64,000 nt of DNA from a virus. Positions 55,640-64,000 of this stretch are shown here, one piece after another. The DNA is taken from the UHGV virus genome UHGV-0117634. One strand, 5' to 3'. Below the pieces are notes generated by a model. That model made no database searches. It was not told the origin of the DNA and was given only the letters and a program-made list of their open reading frames with translations. Each line of letters begins with the position of its first letter. Position 1 is the first letter of the stretch. A program made the translations under genes and the position numbers.

Positions 55640-56239
55640 TTATTTTACCCCTTTGGAGTCTACATCTAGATGGATAGTATATTCTGGTGGCTCCTGTCCT
55701 TCCTCGTAAACCAATTCACCATCCACAATGACACGTTCAATAATACTTCCACGTTCATCTTTTAATACTGAATTTTTTACAAGGGTTACAACAAGAGGTG
55801 CAGAATTTTCAAAATCTGTGTTGAGATAAGTATAATCATTTGGGATAGCCCCTGTATCAAGTACTGAAGCACCTGTCATGTCAGCTAGATAATCTCTTGT
55901 AGTACTCATCTCTAATCTTTGTTTTAGCTCAAGCATAATACTGTGAGCACCTTTACCATTTACAGTAATCAGTACAGGAATCTGAAAAGCAATTCTATAA
56001 CAAACTACATCATCTTCCACGAACTTATCAAGAACCCAACCATAAGGTGTGGTAGCATCTTGACAGTATACTGTAATAAAAGGCTGGTCTGGTTTTAGAC
56101 CTTTATCATTGGAATTATCTGAAGGGTAAGCCCTAATAACATTTGGTCTGTTATTCTTGTCTCTCGCTAAACGGTGACCAATAACATCAACCAAAACTCG
56201 GACAATACCTTTCTCAAGTTCTGCTGTTTCTAACTGCAT
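55640..56239 (-). CDS. head-tail joining / tail terminator-like protein
   Basis: Synteny between head and sheath genes. Confidence 0.35.
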   Translation of the reverse strand: MQLETAELEKGIVRVLVDVIGHRLARDKNNRPNVIRAYPSDNSNDKGLKPDQPFITVYCQDATTPYGWVLDKFVEDDVVCYRIAFQIPVLITVNGKGAHSIMLELKQRLEMSTTRDYLADMTGASVLDTGAIPNDYTYLNTDFENSAPLVVTLVKNSVLKDERGSIIERVIVDGELVYEEGQEPPEYTIHLDVDSKGVK

Positions 56240-56615
56240 TCATCTTATCCCTTCTAATAATGATATACTCATAATGGGATGTGTGAGCTAATTGTTCAGA
56301 CCAATCCATTGTCATAAAGACTTCGTATTCGTGTCCCTTAATCATGACAATATCCGCTTCAGTCCAATCAACATCATCAGACGTTCTTAACTCAGCTACA
56401 GTGAAAAGGATTCTTGTATCTGTCAATCTGATACCTTCAGGTAAAACAATCTGTGTACCATTCTTTACAGAACCCTTAATATAAGGTTGAATATTACCTT
56501 TACAGTTAATTGATACAATATCCTGTGAAGCTACCCAATCACCATCTTCATTGTAATAACCATCTTCAGATACCTTTCTTTTAACTACAAAGCTGTGTCT
56601 ATTTAAGAGTCTCAT
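56214..56615 (-). CDS. head-tail connector protein (133 aa)
   Basis: Synteny. Confidence 0.35.
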   Translation of the reverse strand: MRLLNRHSFVVKRKVSEDGYYNEDGDWVASQDIVSINCKGNIQPYIKGSVKNGTQIVLPEGIRLTDTRILFTVAELRTSDDVDWTEADIVMIKGHEYEVFMTMDWSEQLAHTSHYEYIIIRRDKMNAVRNSRT

Positions 56616-57094
56616 TTTTTAATACCTTTCTTAGTAGAGATTTTATAAGCAAGGTTATCTCGTAAATCTCCAGTTTCCACAAGAGGGGCATTGAAGCCTT
56701 TCTTTTTAACTGTAGATGGAGCGTTAGGAGGCAATATAGCCGTATTACCAAAACCTCTTTTAATTGCTTTCTGAGCACTCTTTGCAAATGCTTCTAAAGT
56801 ATCTGAGGGGTCAGTATTAAGACTGTTTAATTGCTTATAGAGATTCTTCTTAGTCTGCTCTAACAAGGTCTGTCTGTGTAACATCATAGTAATTTCAAAC
56901 AACCTACGATATACTTTACCTGAAGCTGCTGGTACACCAATAACTTCATGCAAGTACATTAAAGCAGAGTAAGAAAAACCAGAGCTATGTTGACCTTGTT
57001 CCTGAAAATACCCAACTTGAGCATTAGCCGTATGCAAGTTCTTCATAGCCCCGACTAATTTAGCTCTAGCGGGGTGAATAACCCTTTTAACCAT
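56612..57094 (-). CDS. head completion / minor head protein (160 aa)
   Basis: Synteny. Confidence 0.35.
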   Translation of the reverse strand: MVKRVIHPARAKLVGAMKNLHTANAQVGYFQEQGQHSSGFSYSALMYLHEVIGVPAASGKVYRRLFEITMMLHRQTLLEQTKKNLYKQLNSLNTDPSDTLEAFAKSAQKAIKRGFGNTAILPPNAPSTVKKKGFNAPLVETGDLRDNLAYKISTKKGIKK

Positions 57095-57543
57095 TATTCA
57101 TCTCGCTCGATAATAAATACACCATTGACACGTTCACAGTAATCTCTACCATTGTATCTAACAGCATCGCCATATTCAGTATATTTCTTGACAGAGCAAG
57201 GATTTTGACGACGCATATTAATATCACACTGGTTAATACCACCCGCATAAGGGAGGCCACTAACAGAGCTTTTAACTAGGTCGTCATAGACAGCTTTCAG
57301 AGATTTGAATCTGGAAGAGTTTCGTAAATAAACACCACCAACTTTCTCATCTCCCATCTTGGCTACTTGAAAGAGTAAATATTTAAGAGCTTTGATGGCT
57401 GCTTTCTTTTCATCCTTTCCAGATTCTTGGTAGAACCACTCTAGCACCGATTGGTCAATGAGGATTTCATTGTTGTCAGTATCGGTGCAGAGGATTCGAA
57501 CTCTATCAAGAGGGTTATTAGCGGGGTCGCCTGTATAACACAT
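57094..57543 (-). CDS. head completion protein (149 aa)
   Basis: Synteny; ATGA overlap with next gene. Confidence 0.35.
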   Translation of the reverse strand: MCYTGDPANNPLDRVRILCTDTDNNEILIDQSVLEWFYQESGKDEKKAAIKALKYLLFQVAKMGDEKVGGVYLRNSSRFKSLKAVYDDLVKSSVSGLPYAGGINQCDINMRRQNPCSVKKYTEYGDAVRYNGRDYCERVNGVFIIERDE

Positions 57544-58700: not shown

Positions 58701-59078
58701 TTACAGGCCAGTTGGGACGAAATCAATACCTTTCGCCTTAAGAGCAGACTTGACAGCAGCAGCATCAACGCCACTCTCTAGCTTCAGCAAGTCTTTCAGT
58801 TCAGCGTCACGGTAGATACCAACGACTTTCAACTGACCATGATAAGACAGTTGTAGGTCTGCATAGAAGTTAACGATACATACAGAATCTGCCTGAGCTT
58901 CTTGACCAGCAGCTACTTTAGAGCCGTCAGCCTTCAGAACTTCACCAACACGGTATTCTGTGCTTGCTACTGGAGCATACTCTTTACGAGAGTGACCAGT
59001 TGGGGTAATTTCTTCCCAAAGGATGATATCGTTAAGAGGTTCTCTTTCACCTAATTTAGTAAAACCTTGATATGCCAT
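58701..59078 (-). CDS. head decoration-like protein
   Basis: 125 aa, between protease-scaffold and major capsid genes as for lambda D. Confidence 0.45.
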   Translation of the reverse strand: MAYQGFTKLGEREPLNDIILWEEITPTGHSRKEYAPVASTEYRVGEVLKADGSKVAAGQEAQADSVCIVNFYADLQLSYHGQLKVVGIYRDAELKDLLKLESGVDAAAVKSALKAKGIDFVPTGL

Positions 59079-59090
59079 TATTTGTGTTCC

Positions 59091-60440
59091 TTATTTCTTG
59101 ATAAGAGTATTCAAAGCATTCTGGAGAGCCAGTTTGCGTTGGTCAGCGTTAGCATTAACATTTGCTTCTGGAGTGGTATCTTTACCATCATCCACTTCTG
59201 CTTCGCCGTCATTGCCAAGTTCTTCCATAGCGTTTGAGTGTTCCAGAACAGCACCAGCAGCTTCTTTCAGCTTAGTGATTTCAGAATCCTTCTCAGACAT
59301 GGCAGAAGCATGGGACGCGATAGTTTCATTAAGTTTCTGGTTAGCACCTTCCATAGCATTCATAAACAGAACACTCAGAGGGTTGTCAAGACCAGCACCT
59401 AAAATAGCTGTTGCAGCTTCTTTTGCATCAAACCCAAAAGCTTCAGCAGATGCAGAAATCTTACCAGTTAAATCTGTAAGAACTGTTTCCTGTTCCTTAG
59501 CTTTCATTTGAGCAACCTGAAGACGCAGAGCTTCTAGTTCTTGCTTTTCTTGTTCAGTCATTTCTTCACCTGAATTGTTTGTGTTTAAACTTACAGGAGC
59601 TTCTTCAGAACCTTGTAAGTAATTTAAGAAATCATCTTGAGACATGATAGAGTTAATTAAACCAAGTTCAAGAGCTTCCTGAGCAGAATAAACATTCGCC
59701 TCAGTATTCTTTACAGCTTCTTCAGAGATATTACGTGAGTCTGCAACAAAACTAGTAAAAGTCTTGTAAGTGTCATCAATTCTCTTTTGAAGTCTATTCT
59801 TGCTTTCTTCTGATAATGCTTGGAATGGGGAACCCATACCTTTAAATTCACCAGCTTTAATAACGTTAATAGTTACGCCATTCTTTTCAAATGCTTTAGT
59901 TAATTCTTGGTGAACCATAATCACACCAATTGAACCAACATCTGCATCTGGTGATGCAATAATTTCTTCAGCGGAAGATGCAAGAGCGTATGCAGCAGAG
60001 CAAGCAAACTCATCTACATAAGCAATAATTTTCTTTTGGCCTCTTGAAGCCATGATGTGACGTGCCAACTCAAAACAACCTGACGCTTCACCACCACCTG
60101 AATCAACGTGCAGCACGATAGTCTTAATAGACTCATCTGCTAGGGCTTCGTCAAAGCCTCTGCGTAAACCTTCATAAGAACTTAGTCCACCAGTACACAT
60201 TGCATCCATGAAGGTCATACGATGTGTTAGGCCACCCATAATAGGGATGATAGCAATGTCTTCTTTAACTTTTAAAAGACTCCTTGCTTCACCTTTTGGC
60301 TTATCGAAGTTTACTGCTGCTTGTACCTCACCTAACAAGCGGTTATTAACATAAGTCGCTGCTGAGTGGGCTAATGATTCTGTAGCTAGTAAAGGTTGGT
60401 TGAATAATCTGTCAGCAAGTCTGAAGATATTCGAACTCAT
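59091..60440 (-). CDS. head maturation protease (S49/ClpP-like) fused to scaffold-like C-terminal domain
   Basis: IVLHVDSGGGEASG and CSAAYALAS resemble S49 peptidase oxyanion and Ser-nucleophile regions; C-terminal charged coiled coil. Confidence 0.75.
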   Translation of the reverse strand: MSSNIFRLADRLFNQPLLATESLAHSAATYVNNRLLGEVQAAVNFDKPKGEARSLLKVKEDIAIIPIMGGLTHRMTFMDAMCTGGLSSYEGLRRGFDEALADESIKTIVLHVDSGGGEASGCFELARHIMASRGQKKIIAYVDEFACSAAYALASSAEEIIASPDADVGSIGVIMVHQELTKAFEKNGVTINVIKAGEFKGMGSPFQALSEESKNRLQKRIDDTYKTFTSFVADSRNISEEAVKNTEANVYSAQEALELGLINSIMSQDDFLNYLQGSEEAPVSLNTNNSGEEMTEQEKQELEALRLQVAQMKAKEQETVLTDLTGKISASAEAFGFDAKEAATAILGAGLDNPLSVLFMNAMEGANQKLNETIASHASAMSEKDSEITKLKEAAGAVLEHSNAMEELGNDGEAEVDDGKDTTPEANVNANADQRKLALQNALNTLIKK

Positions 60441-60451
60441 TTTTACTCACC

Positions 60452-60784
60452 CTATTTATTTAAGTCAATGGATACTGAAGAGATAACATAAATTCCTTCT
60501 TCAGCAAAGAACTGAGGGCTACTTAGAGCACCTGTTGCCACGCACTTAGAGTTGTCATCCCATAAGCTAAAATGAGAAACTGTAGCAGAAGCCGGAACAG
60601 TAATATTAACTGTGTCTTCTGAGGCAATTAATCCATTATTAGGTTCTGAGAAGAAGATAGCCACTGGCTGAGTAACCTTGTTTGCTGTAGGGTCTGCCGT
60701 TGGGTCTACATTGTGTAATACAATAGTTGTCGGGGTTAGTGTGGCTAGGATTTTATTCTTACCATCAATCGTTAATGTTCCCAT
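60452..60784 (-). CDS. hypothetical protein (110 aa) between portal and protease
   Basis: ORF-track ORF; Thr/Pro-rich N-terminal half. Confidence 0.4.
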   Translation of the reverse strand: MGTLTIDGKNKILATLTPTTIVLHNVDPTADPTANKVTQPVAIFFSEPNNGLIASEDTVNITVPASATVSHFSLWDDNSKCVATGALSSPQFFAEEGIYVISSVSIDLNK

Positions 60785-61284
60785 TAATTAAACCTTACTT
60801 TTTGTTTAAGGATTGTTGAATGGTTACCAGATTCATCTACCACATTTACAATCATATCATAAACTTTACCTTTGACAAGTACTTTGTAATCATTTTGTGA
60901 AAAAATGTACTCAAGTCTGTTAGACTCTTTATTTACTGTCATTGGAGATTGAAATGCTGTATCAATGGTAATGAATGCAGCTTCAACACTATTAACGTTA
61001 ACACGTTTATTCTCACAGTTATATAACTTTACACCCAAAAGGCATGAACTGTCAAATGGAATTTTAACAATTTCGTTACAATTGTTTGAAATAAACTGTT
61101 TTCCGCTCATTGGAGCATCAAGTAACCTGCAAATAGTGAAAACGTCAGAGGTTCCACCATCACTAACATACCCTGAAAGGCTGACCCTTGAGCCAGCCTC
61201 TACAGTTAATTCATCAGTGATAATTAAGACACCTCTATAAGAATGCACTCGCGTAGCATTGGAAATAGAGATAACTTCTGCCAT
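60784..61284 (-). CDS. hypothetical protein (166 aa) between portal and protease
   Basis: ORF-track ORF. Confidence 0.4.
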   Translation of the reverse strand: MAEVISISNATRVHSYRGVLIITDELTVEAGSRVSLSGYVSDGGTSDVFTICRLLDAPMSGKQFISNNCNEIVKIPFDSSCLLGVKLYNCENKRVNVNSVEAAFITIDTAFQSPMTVNKESNRLEYIFSQNDYKVLVKGKVYDMIVNVVDESGNHSTILKQKVRFN

Positions 61285-62750
61285 TATTTGTTTGCCTTAT
61301 TAGCTGTACTTGGGTCTTTAGCTGAAGGAGTATTAGCAGTCCCTTCTCCAGCAGTTTTATAACCATCACCAGAACGACTTTGAGTGTTTGGAGATAGTTT
61401 CTCAGATACTGGTTTAGACTCATCAGCAGGTTCAAGGTCAAGATATTCTCTAAGCTTGTCAGACAATGGCTTGTCAACTTCCAGAGCACCAACTGCAACT
61501 GTTTTCTGAATGAATGATGCAATAGCTTCAAGGTCTGGTGTCTCAATATCATCATACACAATTTCTACGTGTTCTTCATCATCCCACATATTTAGTGCAT
61601 AAGTCTGAGCAACCAAATCACGGTTAATTACATTCTTCACTTGCTTCAGAAGAATATCAACTGACATTGCCAGTAAGCTTGTCTTAGAATCTGCCAGAGA
61701 GAATGAGCCATACTTTGACTGTCCCATAGCAAGAACATCAGACATAAACGCCATCATAATTTGCTTAGAGTATCTATCAATGATAGAACCTGTATCATAA
61801 GCTTTAGCACCCTGTCGAGAAACTAATGAGAACTCAAAGATATCTTCTTTAGTTTCTGGGTCGATAAATCTAGGCCAAATTAAACCTGCTCTGTCATTAG
61901 CAATTAAATCATTTACTACTTCTTGGCAGTATTTAACAAAAGCTTTCTTTTCAGGTTCTGCATCTTCACCTAAGTAATCAGGTGGAAGACCAATCTTTGG
62001 CATACCTACTAAGTCTCTGGAAACACCAACTGCTTCAAACTCTTCAATTTGAACTTTGTATTTCCAAGGAACATAAGCATTAAGTAATGGTGAACGTCCC
62101 TCTGGGTTACCATATTCATCGTCATACTTGAACAATAAGAATTTACTTCTAGGAAGCTTTCTTGTCAATGGTTGTTCACCAAGATTAATTGCTCCTGCAA
62201 TATGGGAAACATTACGCAGGTTCTGTCTAACACCAATGACTTTTCTATAGTCAGAGTCAAAGTACCATTTGTCTAATGTAGTCTGATTACGGATTGGTAA
62301 TTTAGCCCAACCAATTAAACCATCATTATATTTTGAAGGGTACTTACCTTTCTTGCCTTGACGTTTCTTATAAACTTTTTCGTTTACACAGAAACCGTAA
62401 GTACAGAATGACATTACAGAGTTAATAAAGTCAGCCCAATCGTGCTCCATGTCATTCATTAGTGAGTTAAAGAAATTAGCCCTTTCAATCATCTTGGCAT
62501 CTTTCTCTTTTCCCTTCGGTGGTACGAATCTCCAGTTAACCTTTCTGACAAACATCTTAATAATATTTACAGAGGCTGCTACTGAAGGGTCTCTCATCAT
62601 AAGTTGGAAAGTCTTAATACTTTCTGGGAATCTTAAAGCCTGTCTAGGTTCTTCATAGATTCTTCCTGAGCGAACTTTAAGGCCAAGACTCCCAACCTCA
62701 CCCATTCTGAATGGAGGAAGGCTTTCTTGTGTTTCTGTGATATCTGCCAT
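61284..62750 (-). CDS. portal protein
   Basis: 488 aa, immediately downstream of the terminase large subunit gene; disordered basic C-terminus. Confidence 0.6.
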   Translation of the reverse strand: MADITETQESLPPFRMGEVGSLGLKVRSGRIYEEPRQALRFPESIKTFQLMMRDPSVAASVNIIKMFVRKVNWRFVPPKGKEKDAKMIERANFFNSLMNDMEHDWADFINSVMSFCTYGFCVNEKVYKKRQGKKGKYPSKYNDGLIGWAKLPIRNQTTLDKWYFDSDYRKVIGVRQNLRNVSHIAGAINLGEQPLTRKLPRSKFLLFKYDDEYGNPEGRSPLLNAYVPWKYKVQIEEFEAVGVSRDLVGMPKIGLPPDYLGEDAEPEKKAFVKYCQEVVNDLIANDRAGLIWPRFIDPETKEDIFEFSLVSRQGAKAYDTGSIIDRYSKQIMMAFMSDVLAMGQSKYGSFSLADSKTSLLAMSVDILLKQVKNVINRDLVAQTYALNMWDDEEHVEIVYDDIETPDLEAIASFIQKTVAVGALEVDKPLSDKLREYLDLEPADESKPVSEKLSPNTQSRSGDGYKTAGEGTANTPSAKDPSTANKANK

Positions 62751-62762
62751 TCTTTCTACCTA

Positions 62763-64000
62763 TTAGCGTCTTAGCCCCTGATATGGATTACTCTTCATAA
62801 TATCTGTATGAGCACCCATTGAAGGTGGCTTGAATAGTTTAACTTCGTTTAGACTGTTGAAAGCATCACTGGTAGCATCCACTTGGTCATCCTTAGTACG
62901 ACCATCGCCACAAAAACCTTCTAGTTCTTGGAAATATGCTTCATTCCAAGAGCCTCTAACAATTTTGACAAGTCCTGCCTCAGAAGCAGCAGAGAAACCC
63001 GCAAAACGGGTGACTTTATCTTTATTTGTTGGTTTAGCTCTTGCTCGGAAACCTTTCTCAGCAAGTTTTCTAATAAGGGAGGTTGCGTAGGATTTACCAG
63101 CAGCGCCGGGGTCTTGAGGGATAAAAATACCTGTGCGCTTACCATCACCTTCAGCAGTTTGGTTAATTTGTGTTTCAACTCCAGAAGGTCTATCTCTAAA
63201 TCTTACTACGTTAATCACATAATAGCAACCATCTTTTTTAGATTTACCCATTTTAACACCTGCTGTCCAGTCAGGGTTAGGGTTAACCTCAGAAGGTAAT
63301 GTTGCTGCTAAGTCCCATGCTCTTACGTCAAATACGTCTGCTGGAACACTATCAACAATTTCACACCATTGTCTTTGCCAGTAGTTTGAACCTTCAGCAC
63401 GAGCTTTCCAGTTACCAAAACGTAAACGTGCAACGTTAACTGGTGTGTTGTTTTCTAATTTACCACGATACTTAGGTTCAAGGAAATCTAGAATAGGGTT
63501 GTCATCAATTGTACCGGAAATAAAGGTATATGTTTGAGGAATCTCAAGAGGGAACATTTCAAGAATTTTATCCCTATCCCAATCAGAAACCATGACACCA
63601 TCATTCATAACATACCAACGAATCCTACCGCACTTCTCTGGGTCTGGATATCCAGCATCATCTAGGAAAGGTTCTACCCAATCATAAATAAAGTGGTCTC
63701 TATCTGGGTTCATTGAGATTTTCATATATGAGTCACCTTCAGCACCAGAACGTAAACGTGTCTGAAGATATGAAATCTGTGAAGCCGAGAAGTGTGTACC
63801 TTCGTCGAAATAAATAGCTGAGTATTCGATACCTTGGTGACCTTCTGAGTGTTTCTCAAGTTCCAAATAAGTAAACTTGATAGTTGCTCCAGAAGGGAAA
63901 GTGATAGTCATTTTCTGTTCATGTGGAACTCCACCAAACTTACCAAATAACTTCTTAGCCGCAGGCCACAGACCACCTTGTAACTGTGTTGTATTTCGAC
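62763..64000 (-). CDS. terL: terminase large subunit (partial; 5' end beyond window edge)
   Basis: Open frame runs to the window edge; C-terminal nuclease-like region (...KDDQVDATSDAFNSLN); first gene of the head operon. Confidence 0.75.
   Translation of the reverse strand, partial: RNTTQLQGGLWPAAKKLFGKFGGVPHEQKMTITFPSGATIKFTYLELEKHSEGHQGIEYSAIYFDEGTHFSASQISYLQTRLRSGAEGDSYMKISMNPDRDHFIYDWVEPFLDDAGYPDPEKCGRIRWYVMNDGVMVSDWDRDKILEMFPLEIPQTYTFISGTIDDNPILDFLEPKYRGKLENNTPVNVARLRFGNWKARAEGSNYWQRQWCEIVDSVPADVFDVRAWDLAATLPSEVNPNPDWTAGVKMGKSKKDGCYYVINVVRFRDRPSGVETQINQTAEGDGKRTGIFIPQDPGAAGKSYATSLIRKLAEKGFRARAKPTNKDKVTRFAGFSAASEAGLVKIVRGSWNEAYFQELEGFCGDGRTKDDQVDATSDAFNSLNEVKLFKPPSMGAHTDIMKSNPYQGLRR

What the first reader, a model, noticed from the sequence alone, without database searches (positions are those of the whole stretch)
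60452..61284. Two unknown genes inserted between portal and head protease
In lambda-like head modules the portal gene is normally followed directly by the protease/scaffold gene. Here two ORFs of 166 and 110 aa sit between them, the second Thr/Pro-rich. They could be head accessory or ejected internal proteins, or a moron insertion.
Basis: inference. Interest (0 to 1): 0.5.

Follow-up and report, generated by a model that had tools for sequence, protein, structure and literature searches.

The report
Phage neck collar and whisker genes
The two "unknown" genes between portal and protease encode the collar and whisker proteins that ring the neck of Felix O1-like phages; both were already solved by cryo-EM in 2025, so the finding is real but ordinary.

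Summary
Two minus-strand ORFs, 166 aa (60784..61284) and 110 aa (60452..60784), lie between a portal gene and an S49 head protease gene. They are not unknown, not an insertion and not a moron. The window is an Ounavirinae (Mooglevirus) myophage, about 99% identical to Shigella phages Sf16 and Sf14. Both proteins are 99-100% identical to chains of PDB 9C39 (Sf14 neck) and about 92-94% identical to chains of 9MT4 (Bas63 connector). ORF166 is the collar protein. It has a disordered N-terminal "rope" and an Ig-like domain, and 12 copies form a ring at the adaptor/head-closure interface. ORF110 is the whisker protein. Its dimers thread onto the rope, giving 12 whiskers that alternate up towards the capsid and down towards the sheath. 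Both were detected in Sf14 virions by mass spectrometry. About 300 phage records carry the pair, including Erwinia phages at 37-45% identity; the gene order was checked directly in Sf14 and phiEa21-4. Both junctions are overlapping TAATG stop/start codons. The whisker is a divergent relative of podophage GP4 fiber I (Pfam Gp80). What the complex does is untested: it may brace the head-tail joint or bind LPS. Novelty: already known.

The parts
60784..61284 (-). Collar protein, 166 aa (Sf14 gp30 = FDI99_gp127; Bas63 'Collar protein'; phrog_3977). The N-terminal ~49 residues form the 'rope' that threads through whisker dimers. Residues ~50-166 form an Ig-like beta-sandwich that builds a 12-mer ring around the adaptor/head-closure interface. 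Cys52, Cys69 and Cys90 are present.
60452..60784 (-). Whisker protein, 110 aa (Sf14 gp31 = FDI99_gp126; Bas63 gp5; phrog_240 'head protein'). It has an incomplete beta-sandwich that is completed by the collar rope. Dimers are strung on the rope to form up- and down-pointing whiskers.
61284..62750 (-). Portal protein (488 aa). Its stop codon overlaps the collar start codon (TAATG).
   Evidence: Pfam Portal_Mu E=1.5e-28 and phrog_113 E=2.9e-110. Junction read.
59091..60440 (-). S49 head maturation protease with a C-terminal scaffold-like extension (449 aa). It starts 11 nt after the whisker stop codon.
   Evidence: Pfam Peptidase_S49 E=3.9e-39 and phrog_53 E=4e-117. Sequence.
57094..57543 (-). 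Adaptor (head-to-tail connector, 149 aa), the binding partner of the collar. Cys2 is present; in Bas63 it is the putative disulfide partner of collar Cys69. Cys106 and Cys116 are also present.
   Evidence: PDB 9c39_C E=1.4e-98 and 9mt4_C E=1e-94. Cys positions. Contacts from PMC12609058.
56214..56615 (-). Head-closure (head completion) protein, 133 aa. In Bas63 every second collar subunit contacts it.
   Evidence: PDB 9c39_E E=1.4e-87 and 9mt4_E E=3e-81, 'Head-closure protein'. Contact from PMC12609058.
55640..56239 (-). Tail terminator, 199 aa (called 'collar' gp38 in the Sf14 paper). It is contacted by down-facing whiskers.
   Evidence: PDB 9c39_F E=1.5e-131 and 9mt4_F 'Tail terminator protein' E=3e-125. 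NCBIfam 'phage neck terminator protein'. Contact from PMC12609058.

Best explanation
The two genes encode the collar-whisker complex of the Ounavirinae neck. [quoted passage not shown] In Bas63 the ring appears stitched by Cys52-Cys90 disulfides between neighbours and by a Cys69 bond to adaptor Cys2. Each collar subunit sends out its N-terminal ~50 residues as an extended 'rope'. Dimers of the 110-aa whisker protein clamp onto the rope like beads, and the rope strand completes the whisker's incomplete beta-sandwich. Ropes alternate up and down, giving six whiskers that touch the capsid and six that touch the tail terminator and the first sheath rings. INFERRED: the complex mainly works as an external brace tying the separately assembled head and tail together. 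It is added to the head after the adaptor and head-closure proteins have bound. The TAATG overlaps portal/collar and collar/whisker couple its translation to the portal's, which fits the 12:12 portal:collar stoichiometry. A role in host adhesion, as proposed for the GP4 homologue, is possible in addition.
Against: Nothing contradicts the structural identity. The function is untested: neither paper reports a knockout, and the bracing role is the authors' speculation. The disulfides are described as 'putative'. The two papers interpret the same density differently. Sf14 describes each whisker as two gp30 plus two gp31 chains, while Bas63 describes two whisker dimers per collar rope. Both deposited models contain 2 collar and 6 whisker chains per C6 unit, not the 8 whisker chains the Bas63 text implies. 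Cys69 is not conserved in the Erwinia homologue, so the collar-adaptor disulfide is not universal.
Confidence: 0.93

Rival explanations
1. The whiskers are primarily host-adhesion fibres. They bind LPS reversibly to hold the virion at the cell surface before the baseplate fibres engage, as has been speculated for the homologous fiber I of podophage GP4. This is a rival only for the function, not for the identity.
Against: The whiskers are short and packed against the capsid and sheath at the end of the virion far from the baseplate. The protein is highly conserved (about 92% between genera with different hosts), whereas the receptor-binding fibres of these phages are the variable parts. No binding data exist.
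Confidence: 0.2
2. The complex is a T4 wac-like device that docks retracted long tail fibres or helps attach them, acting as an environmental sensor.
For: It has a comparable position and an up/down alternation to the T4 collar and whiskers. The Bas63 tail fibres lie folded along the sheath.
Against: There is no relationship to fibritin in sequence or fold. The whisker is a beta-sandwich, not a trimeric coiled coil. [quoted passage not shown]
Confidence: 0.05
3. The pair is a moron or recent insertion of non-structural cargo genes into the head module.
For: The position is unusual for a lambda-type head module, and G+C dips locally to 0.30-0.36 inside the collar gene.
Against: About 300 Ounavirinae records carry both proteins, and the same gene order holds in Sf14 and in the Kolesnikvirus phiEa21-4 at 37-45% identity. 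The overlapping TAATG junctions leave no room for an own promoter or terminator. There are no defence-family hits. The proteins are in the virion.
Confidence: 0.01
4. They are internal head proteins ejected with the DNA, or assembly factors absent from the mature virion.
For: Their gene position next to the portal and protease is where some phages encode internal or ejection proteins.
Against: Both were modelled on the outside of the neck in two independent cryo-EM studies and detected by MS in mature particles.
Confidence: 0.01

Closest known systems
Shigella phage Sf14 gp30/gp31 (FDI99_gp127/gp126), PDB 9C39; Subramanian et al., Commun Biol 2025 (PMC11821841)
   Same: Essentially the same proteins: 165/166 and 110/110 residues identical. 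The gene order, neighbours and genus (Mooglevirus) are the same. Both are MS-detected virion proteins forming up and down whiskers at the neck.
   Different: One substitution in the collar (S60 here, N in Sf14). The Sf14 paper calls both proteins 'whisker' and uses 'collar' for the tail terminator gp38.
Escherichia phage Bas63 (JohannRWettstein) collar and whisker (gp5) proteins, PDB 9MT4; Hodgkinson-Bean et al., Sci Adv 2025 (PMC12609058)
   Same: Orthologues at about 92-94% identity with the same lengths (166 and 110 aa). The Cys residues assigned to the disulfide ring (52, 90) and to the adaptor link (69) are present here, as is adaptor Cys2.
   Different: Different genus (Felixounavirus). 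No structural difference is expected.
Ralstonia podophage GP4 fiber I (gp80, Pfam PF23140) with its rope protein and fiber-tail-adaptor, PDB 8JOU
   Different: GP4 is a podophage. Its rope is a separate, longer protein carrying five dimers (10 chains in 8JOU), and its fibres all point up. Here the rope is fused to the collar, carries two dimers, and alternates up and down. The window protein alone scores below Pfam's cut-off (23.1 versus 27 bits).
T4 fibritin (wac) collar/whiskers and XM1 gp40
   Same: Peripheral neck decoration with up and down elements. XM1 gp40 also has an Ig-like ring domain (per PMC12609058).
   Different: Wac and the XM1 whiskers are trimeric alpha-helical coiled coils made by one gene product. 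Here two gene products build beta-sandwich whiskers. There is no sequence or fold relationship to wac.
N-terminal domain of siphophage baseplate upper proteins (TP901-1 ORF48/BppU; 80alpha gp62/gp68)
   Different: They sit at the baseplate, not the neck, and share only 6-13% identity. The collar model has moderate confidence (pLDDT 70-87 in the domain). The similarity may reflect a common Ig-like scaffold rather than shared descent.

Membership tests
Ounavirinae collar protein (Sf14 FDI99_gp127 / Bas63 collar; phrog_3977) | Full-length sequence match to the solved collar chains | tested here: met
   9c39_I E=5e-106 and 9mt4_G E=4.7e-101, residues 1-166 to 1-166. phrog_3977 E=7e-100, 166/166.
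Ounavirinae collar protein (Sf14 FDI99_gp127 / Bas63 collar; phrog_3977) | Extended N-terminal rope followed by an Ig-like beta-sandwich domain | tested here: met
Ounavirinae collar protein (Sf14 FDI99_gp127 / Bas63 collar; phrog_3977) | Cysteines of the putative disulfide ring (Cys52-Cys90) and the adaptor link (collar Cys69 to adaptor Cys2) | tested here: met
   The residues are present at exactly these positions. Cys52 and Cys90 are invariant in phiEa21-4, but Cys69 is not. Whether the bonds actually form cannot be tested here.
Ounavirinae collar protein (Sf14 FDI99_gp127 / Bas63 collar; phrog_3977) | Gene immediately downstream of the portal and upstream of the whisker gene | tested here: met
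Ounavirinae whisker protein (Sf14 FDI99_gp126 / Bas63 gp5; phrog_240) | Full-length sequence and fold match to the solved whisker chains | tested here: met
Ounavirinae whisker protein (Sf14 FDI99_gp126 / Bas63 gp5; phrog_240) | Presence in the mature virion | not testable with these tools
   Taken from the literature for Sf14, which is identical in sequence: detected by MS and modelled in density.
Pfam PF23140 Gp80 (podophage GP4 fiber I) | Score at or above Pfam's gathering threshold (27 bits) | tested here: not met
   23.1 bits, E=1e-4, covering 17-108 of the protein and 24-127/128 of the model.
Pfam PF23140 Gp80 (podophage GP4 fiber I) | Homology to GP4 gp80 demonstrable through intermediates and by fold | tested here: met
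T4 fibritin (wac) collar/whisker | Trimeric alpha-helical coiled-coil fibre made by a single gene product | tested here: not met
   There is no fibritin or coiled-coil hit in Pfam. Both models are beta-sandwich. Two gene products are involved.
Moron (autonomously expressed accessory insertion) | Own promoter and terminator, patchy distribution among relatives, non-structural product | tested here: not met
   The junctions are 1-nt overlaps and no flanking terminator-like site was found. About 300 related records carry the pair. The products are virion proteins.
Lambda-type head module (portal directly followed by protease/scaffold) | S49 (gpC-like) protease, gpD-like decoration protein and gpE-like capsid protein, with a lambda-type portal adjacent to the protease | tested here: inconclusive
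   The protease is S49 and the capsid protein is Phage_cap_E. However, the portal scores as Portal_Mu, and the collar and whisker genes separate it from the protease in the subfamily members checked.

The most novel reading that the evidence does not exclude
The collar-whisker complex may be more than a passive brace. It could be a second, conserved host-adhesion organelle at the neck that binds LPS or another glycan, inherited as a mobile 'rope plus bead' module shared with podophage GP4 and with many uncultured phages. That would make it a widespread, uncharacterised class of accessory adhesin.
Probability: 0.15. Interest if true: 0.4.

Novelty: already known. Interest (0 to 1): 0.1.

Why it matters
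It matters little as a discovery, because the genes, their products' atomic structures and their place in the virion were published in 2025. The practical value is in annotation. Most of the ~300 GenBank records still call these genes 'hypothetical protein' or, for the whisker, 'head protein'. They can now be labelled neck collar protein and neck whisker protein (Gp80/fiber I family). The biological role of the complex (stability versus adhesion) is still untested and could be settled by simple knockouts.

Tried and rejected
1. The word-indexed homologue searches returned only close relatives (60% identity or more). They said nothing about the wider family, so the exhaustive profile search was needed.

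2. In that profile search, two high-ranking hits are not relatives. P0009 (2865 aa, 29 matched stretches) is a eukaryote-type repeat protein with 'WWQVDLG' discoidin/fucolectin-like units. P0045 (1266 aa) is a PKD-like repeat protein. Their scores are sums of many weak repeat matches, so I excluded both from the family alignment.

4. NCBIfam and PADLOC gave no hits for either protein.

5. The weak Pfam TRAP_alpha hit for the collar (14.9 bits against a 24.7-bit cut-off) and the LolD PDB hit (E=0.047) were dismissed as chance.

6. All promoter-like matches lie inside coding sequence of an AT-rich region. I did not treat them as evidence of anything.

7. The G+C dip inside the collar gene was considered as a sign of foreign origin. 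I rejected this because the gene is conserved across the subfamily.

Full report
**Observation.** The mechanical ORF list shows two minus-strand ORFs exactly filling 60452..61284. One is 166 aa (60784..61284) and the other is 110 aa (60452..60784).
- Upstream on the coding strand is a 488-aa portal (61284..62750; Pfam Portal_Mu E=1.5e-28; phrog_113 E=2.9e-110).
- Downstream is a 449-aa S49 head maturation protease (59091..60440; Peptidase_S49 E=3.9e-39).
- After that come a 125-aa decoration protein and a gpE-type major capsid protein.

'Thr/Pro-rich' is only mildly true for ORF110. Thr is 11.8% and Thr+Pro 18.2% overall, reaching 39% only in residues 13-40.

**What the window is.** The 6.45-kb head region is 99.3% identical to Shigella phages Sf16 and KPS64, and 99.0% identical to Sf14. 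It matches 294 phage records in all, from Escherichia, Salmonella, Shigella, Citrobacter, Erwinia and others. This is a Felix O1-like myophage of the subfamily Ounavirinae, genus Mooglevirus (taxonomy line).

**Conservation and gene organisation.**
- tblastn finds the 166-aa protein in 300 records and the 110-aa protein in 301 records. In 255 records a single match covers at least 80% of the 6.45-kb region.
- In Sf14 the two ORFs are FDI99_gp127 and FDI99_gp126, between portal gp128 and protease gp125.
- In the distant Erwinia phage phiEa21-4 (Kolesnikvirus) the same order holds: portal gp47, gp48, gp49 ('head protein'), protease gp50. Identities to the window proteins are 37% and 45%.
- The portal stop overlaps the collar start, and the collar stop overlaps the whisker start. 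Both junctions read TAATG. The protease starts 11 nt after the whisker stop, behind a GGTGAG motif.
- There is no intergenic room for a promoter or terminator, and no terminator-like site flanks the pair.
- Neither protein matches a defence family.

These points rule out a moron or recent insertion, despite a local G+C dip to 0.30-0.36 inside the collar gene.

**Identity.** Both proteins have solved structures.
- ORF166 matches PDB 9c39 chain I ('gp127') at E=5e-106 with a single substitution. It matches 9mt4 chain G ('Collar protein') at E=4.7e-101.
- ORF110 is 100% identical to 9c39 chain K and matches 9mt4 chain I at E=5.4e-65.
- 9C39 is the neck of Shigella phage Sf14 (PMC11821841). 9MT4 is the connector of Escherichia phage Bas63 (PMC12609058).
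- The Sf14 paper's Table 1 lists gp30 (FDI99_gp127) and gp31 (FDI99_gp126) as whisker proteins, both detected by mass spectrometry of particles. It describes two sets of whiskers, one pointing up to the capsid and one pointing down to the tail.

**The Bas63 account is more detailed.**
- Each collar sends out a long N-terminal 'rope'.
- Whisker dimers wrap around the rope 'like beads on a string', two dimers per collar. The rope completes the whiskers' incomplete beta-sandwich.
- Ropes alternate up and down.
- Putative disulfides link neighbouring collars (Cys52-Cys90) and link collar Cys69 to adaptor Cys2.
- Down whiskers touch the tail terminator and sheath rings 1-2. Up whiskers touch the capsid.

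**Checks made here.**
- The window's collar has Cys at 52, 69, 81 and 90. Its adaptor (57094..57543) has Cys at 2, 19, 106, 116 and 136.
- Cys52 and Cys90 are invariant in the Erwinia homologue, but Cys69 is not.
- The neck partners encoded in the window are also in both PDB entries: the adaptor, the head-closure protein 56214..56615 and the tail terminator 55640..56239.
- An AF2 model of the collar leaves residues 1-49 disordered (pLDDT<50) and folds residues 50-166 as a beta-sandwich. This is what a rope that becomes ordered only inside whisker dimers should look like.

**Wider family of the whisker.**
- On its own, the window protein scores 23.1 bits against Pfam PF23140 (Gp80, GP4 fiber I), below the 27-bit cut-off.
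- An exhaustive profile search of 1.84 billion cluster representatives found 49 hits at E<=1e-3. Most are 105-122-aa proteins, and a few are tandem duplications of about 250 aa.
- Two long repeat proteins among the hits are spurious sums of weak repeat matches.
- A profile built from 38 of the single-domain proteins hits GP4 fiber I (8jou_a) at E=3.3e-9. Twenty-seven of the 38 hit PF23140 individually, the best at 6.5e-32.
- The whisker is therefore a divergent member of the Gp80/fiber I family.
- In one soil-metagenome relative, the Gp80-family gene lies downstream of an HK97-type capsid gene rather than next to the portal. The module's position is therefore not fixed outside Ounavirinae.
- The collar family (phrog_3977) was found only among Ounavirinae-like sequences.

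**Mechanism.** The architecture is shown by two independent cryo-EM studies on near-identical proteins. The function is inferred.
- The most likely role is an external brace tying the separately assembled head and tail together. The ring is fixed to the adaptor and head-closure proteins, and the whiskers reach both the capsid and the terminator and sheath.
- The Bas63 authors also raise LPS adhesion, by analogy with GP4. I rate this lower. The whiskers are short and far from the baseplate. They are also highly conserved between genera, while the tail fibres are the variable parts.
- A T4 wac-like role in tail-fibre handling is unlikely, because there is no fold relationship and no reported fibre contact.
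- The translational coupling to the portal, and assembly after adaptor and head-closure binding, are my inferences from the junctions and from the binding site.

**Caveats.**
- The two papers use different names. Sf14 calls both proteins 'whisker' and calls the terminator gp38 'collar'.
- The papers describe the chain composition of a whisker differently.
- Both deposited models hold 2 collar and 6 whisker chains per C6 unit, fewer than the 8 implied by 'two dimers per collar'.
- No genetic or biochemical test of function has been reported in either paper.

**Verdict.** The 'unknown', 'inserted' and 'moron or ejected protein' readings are not supported. 'Accessory virion protein' is loosely right, but the proteins are at the neck rather than the head. 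The finding is already known, and interest is low.

Noticed in passing
window 56612..57094 (-): A 160-aa ORF lies between the adaptor and head-closure genes. It matches phrog_222 'tail completion or Neck1 protein' (E=4.6e-40, covering only the C-terminal part of that profile). Unlike all its neck neighbours, it has no match in the PDB, including the Sf14 and Bas63 neck models. It is also missing from the Sf14 structural-protein table excerpt, which skips gp36. It is a conserved neck-module gene whose place in the virion is not accounted for.
   Followed up: partly
window 58701..59078 (-): The 125-aa protein after the protease is labelled 'tail protease' by PHROGs (phrog_4146) and in RefSeq records (Sf14 FDI99_gp124, phiEa21-4 gp51). 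The Sf14 cryo-EM paper identifies it as the trimeric beta-tulip capsid decoration protein (gp33). This looks like a propagated mis-annotation.
   Followed up: partly
proteins P0016, P0038, P0042, P0054; locus L003 6001..6345: The whisker (Gp80) domain also occurs as ~250-aa tandem duplications in uncultured sequences. In a soil-metagenome phage it sits downstream of an HK97-type capsid gene, next to a glycosyltransferase-like gene, not next to the portal. The 'bead' module appears to move between genome positions and phage types.
   Followed up: partly
window 62763..64000 (-): The large terminase gene runs off the end of the window. The reading frame is open up to base 63998, and the Sf14 orthologue is 1602 nt. 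The 382-aa ORF in the ORF list is therefore a truncation artefact. No tRNA genes lie in the window; the tRNA cluster of these phages is just beyond the terminase.
   Followed up: yes
window 60750..61050: G+C dips to about 0.30 inside the collar gene, against about 0.40 in neighbouring genes. No explanation was sought. The gene is nevertheless conserved across the subfamily.
   Followed up: no
Shigella phage Sf19 record MF327005.1 (hit H6): The head region matches in two pieces spanning about 330 bp more than the query, and the record holds a second match to the collar protein. This suggests an insertion or duplication in that phage's head module.
   Followed up: no
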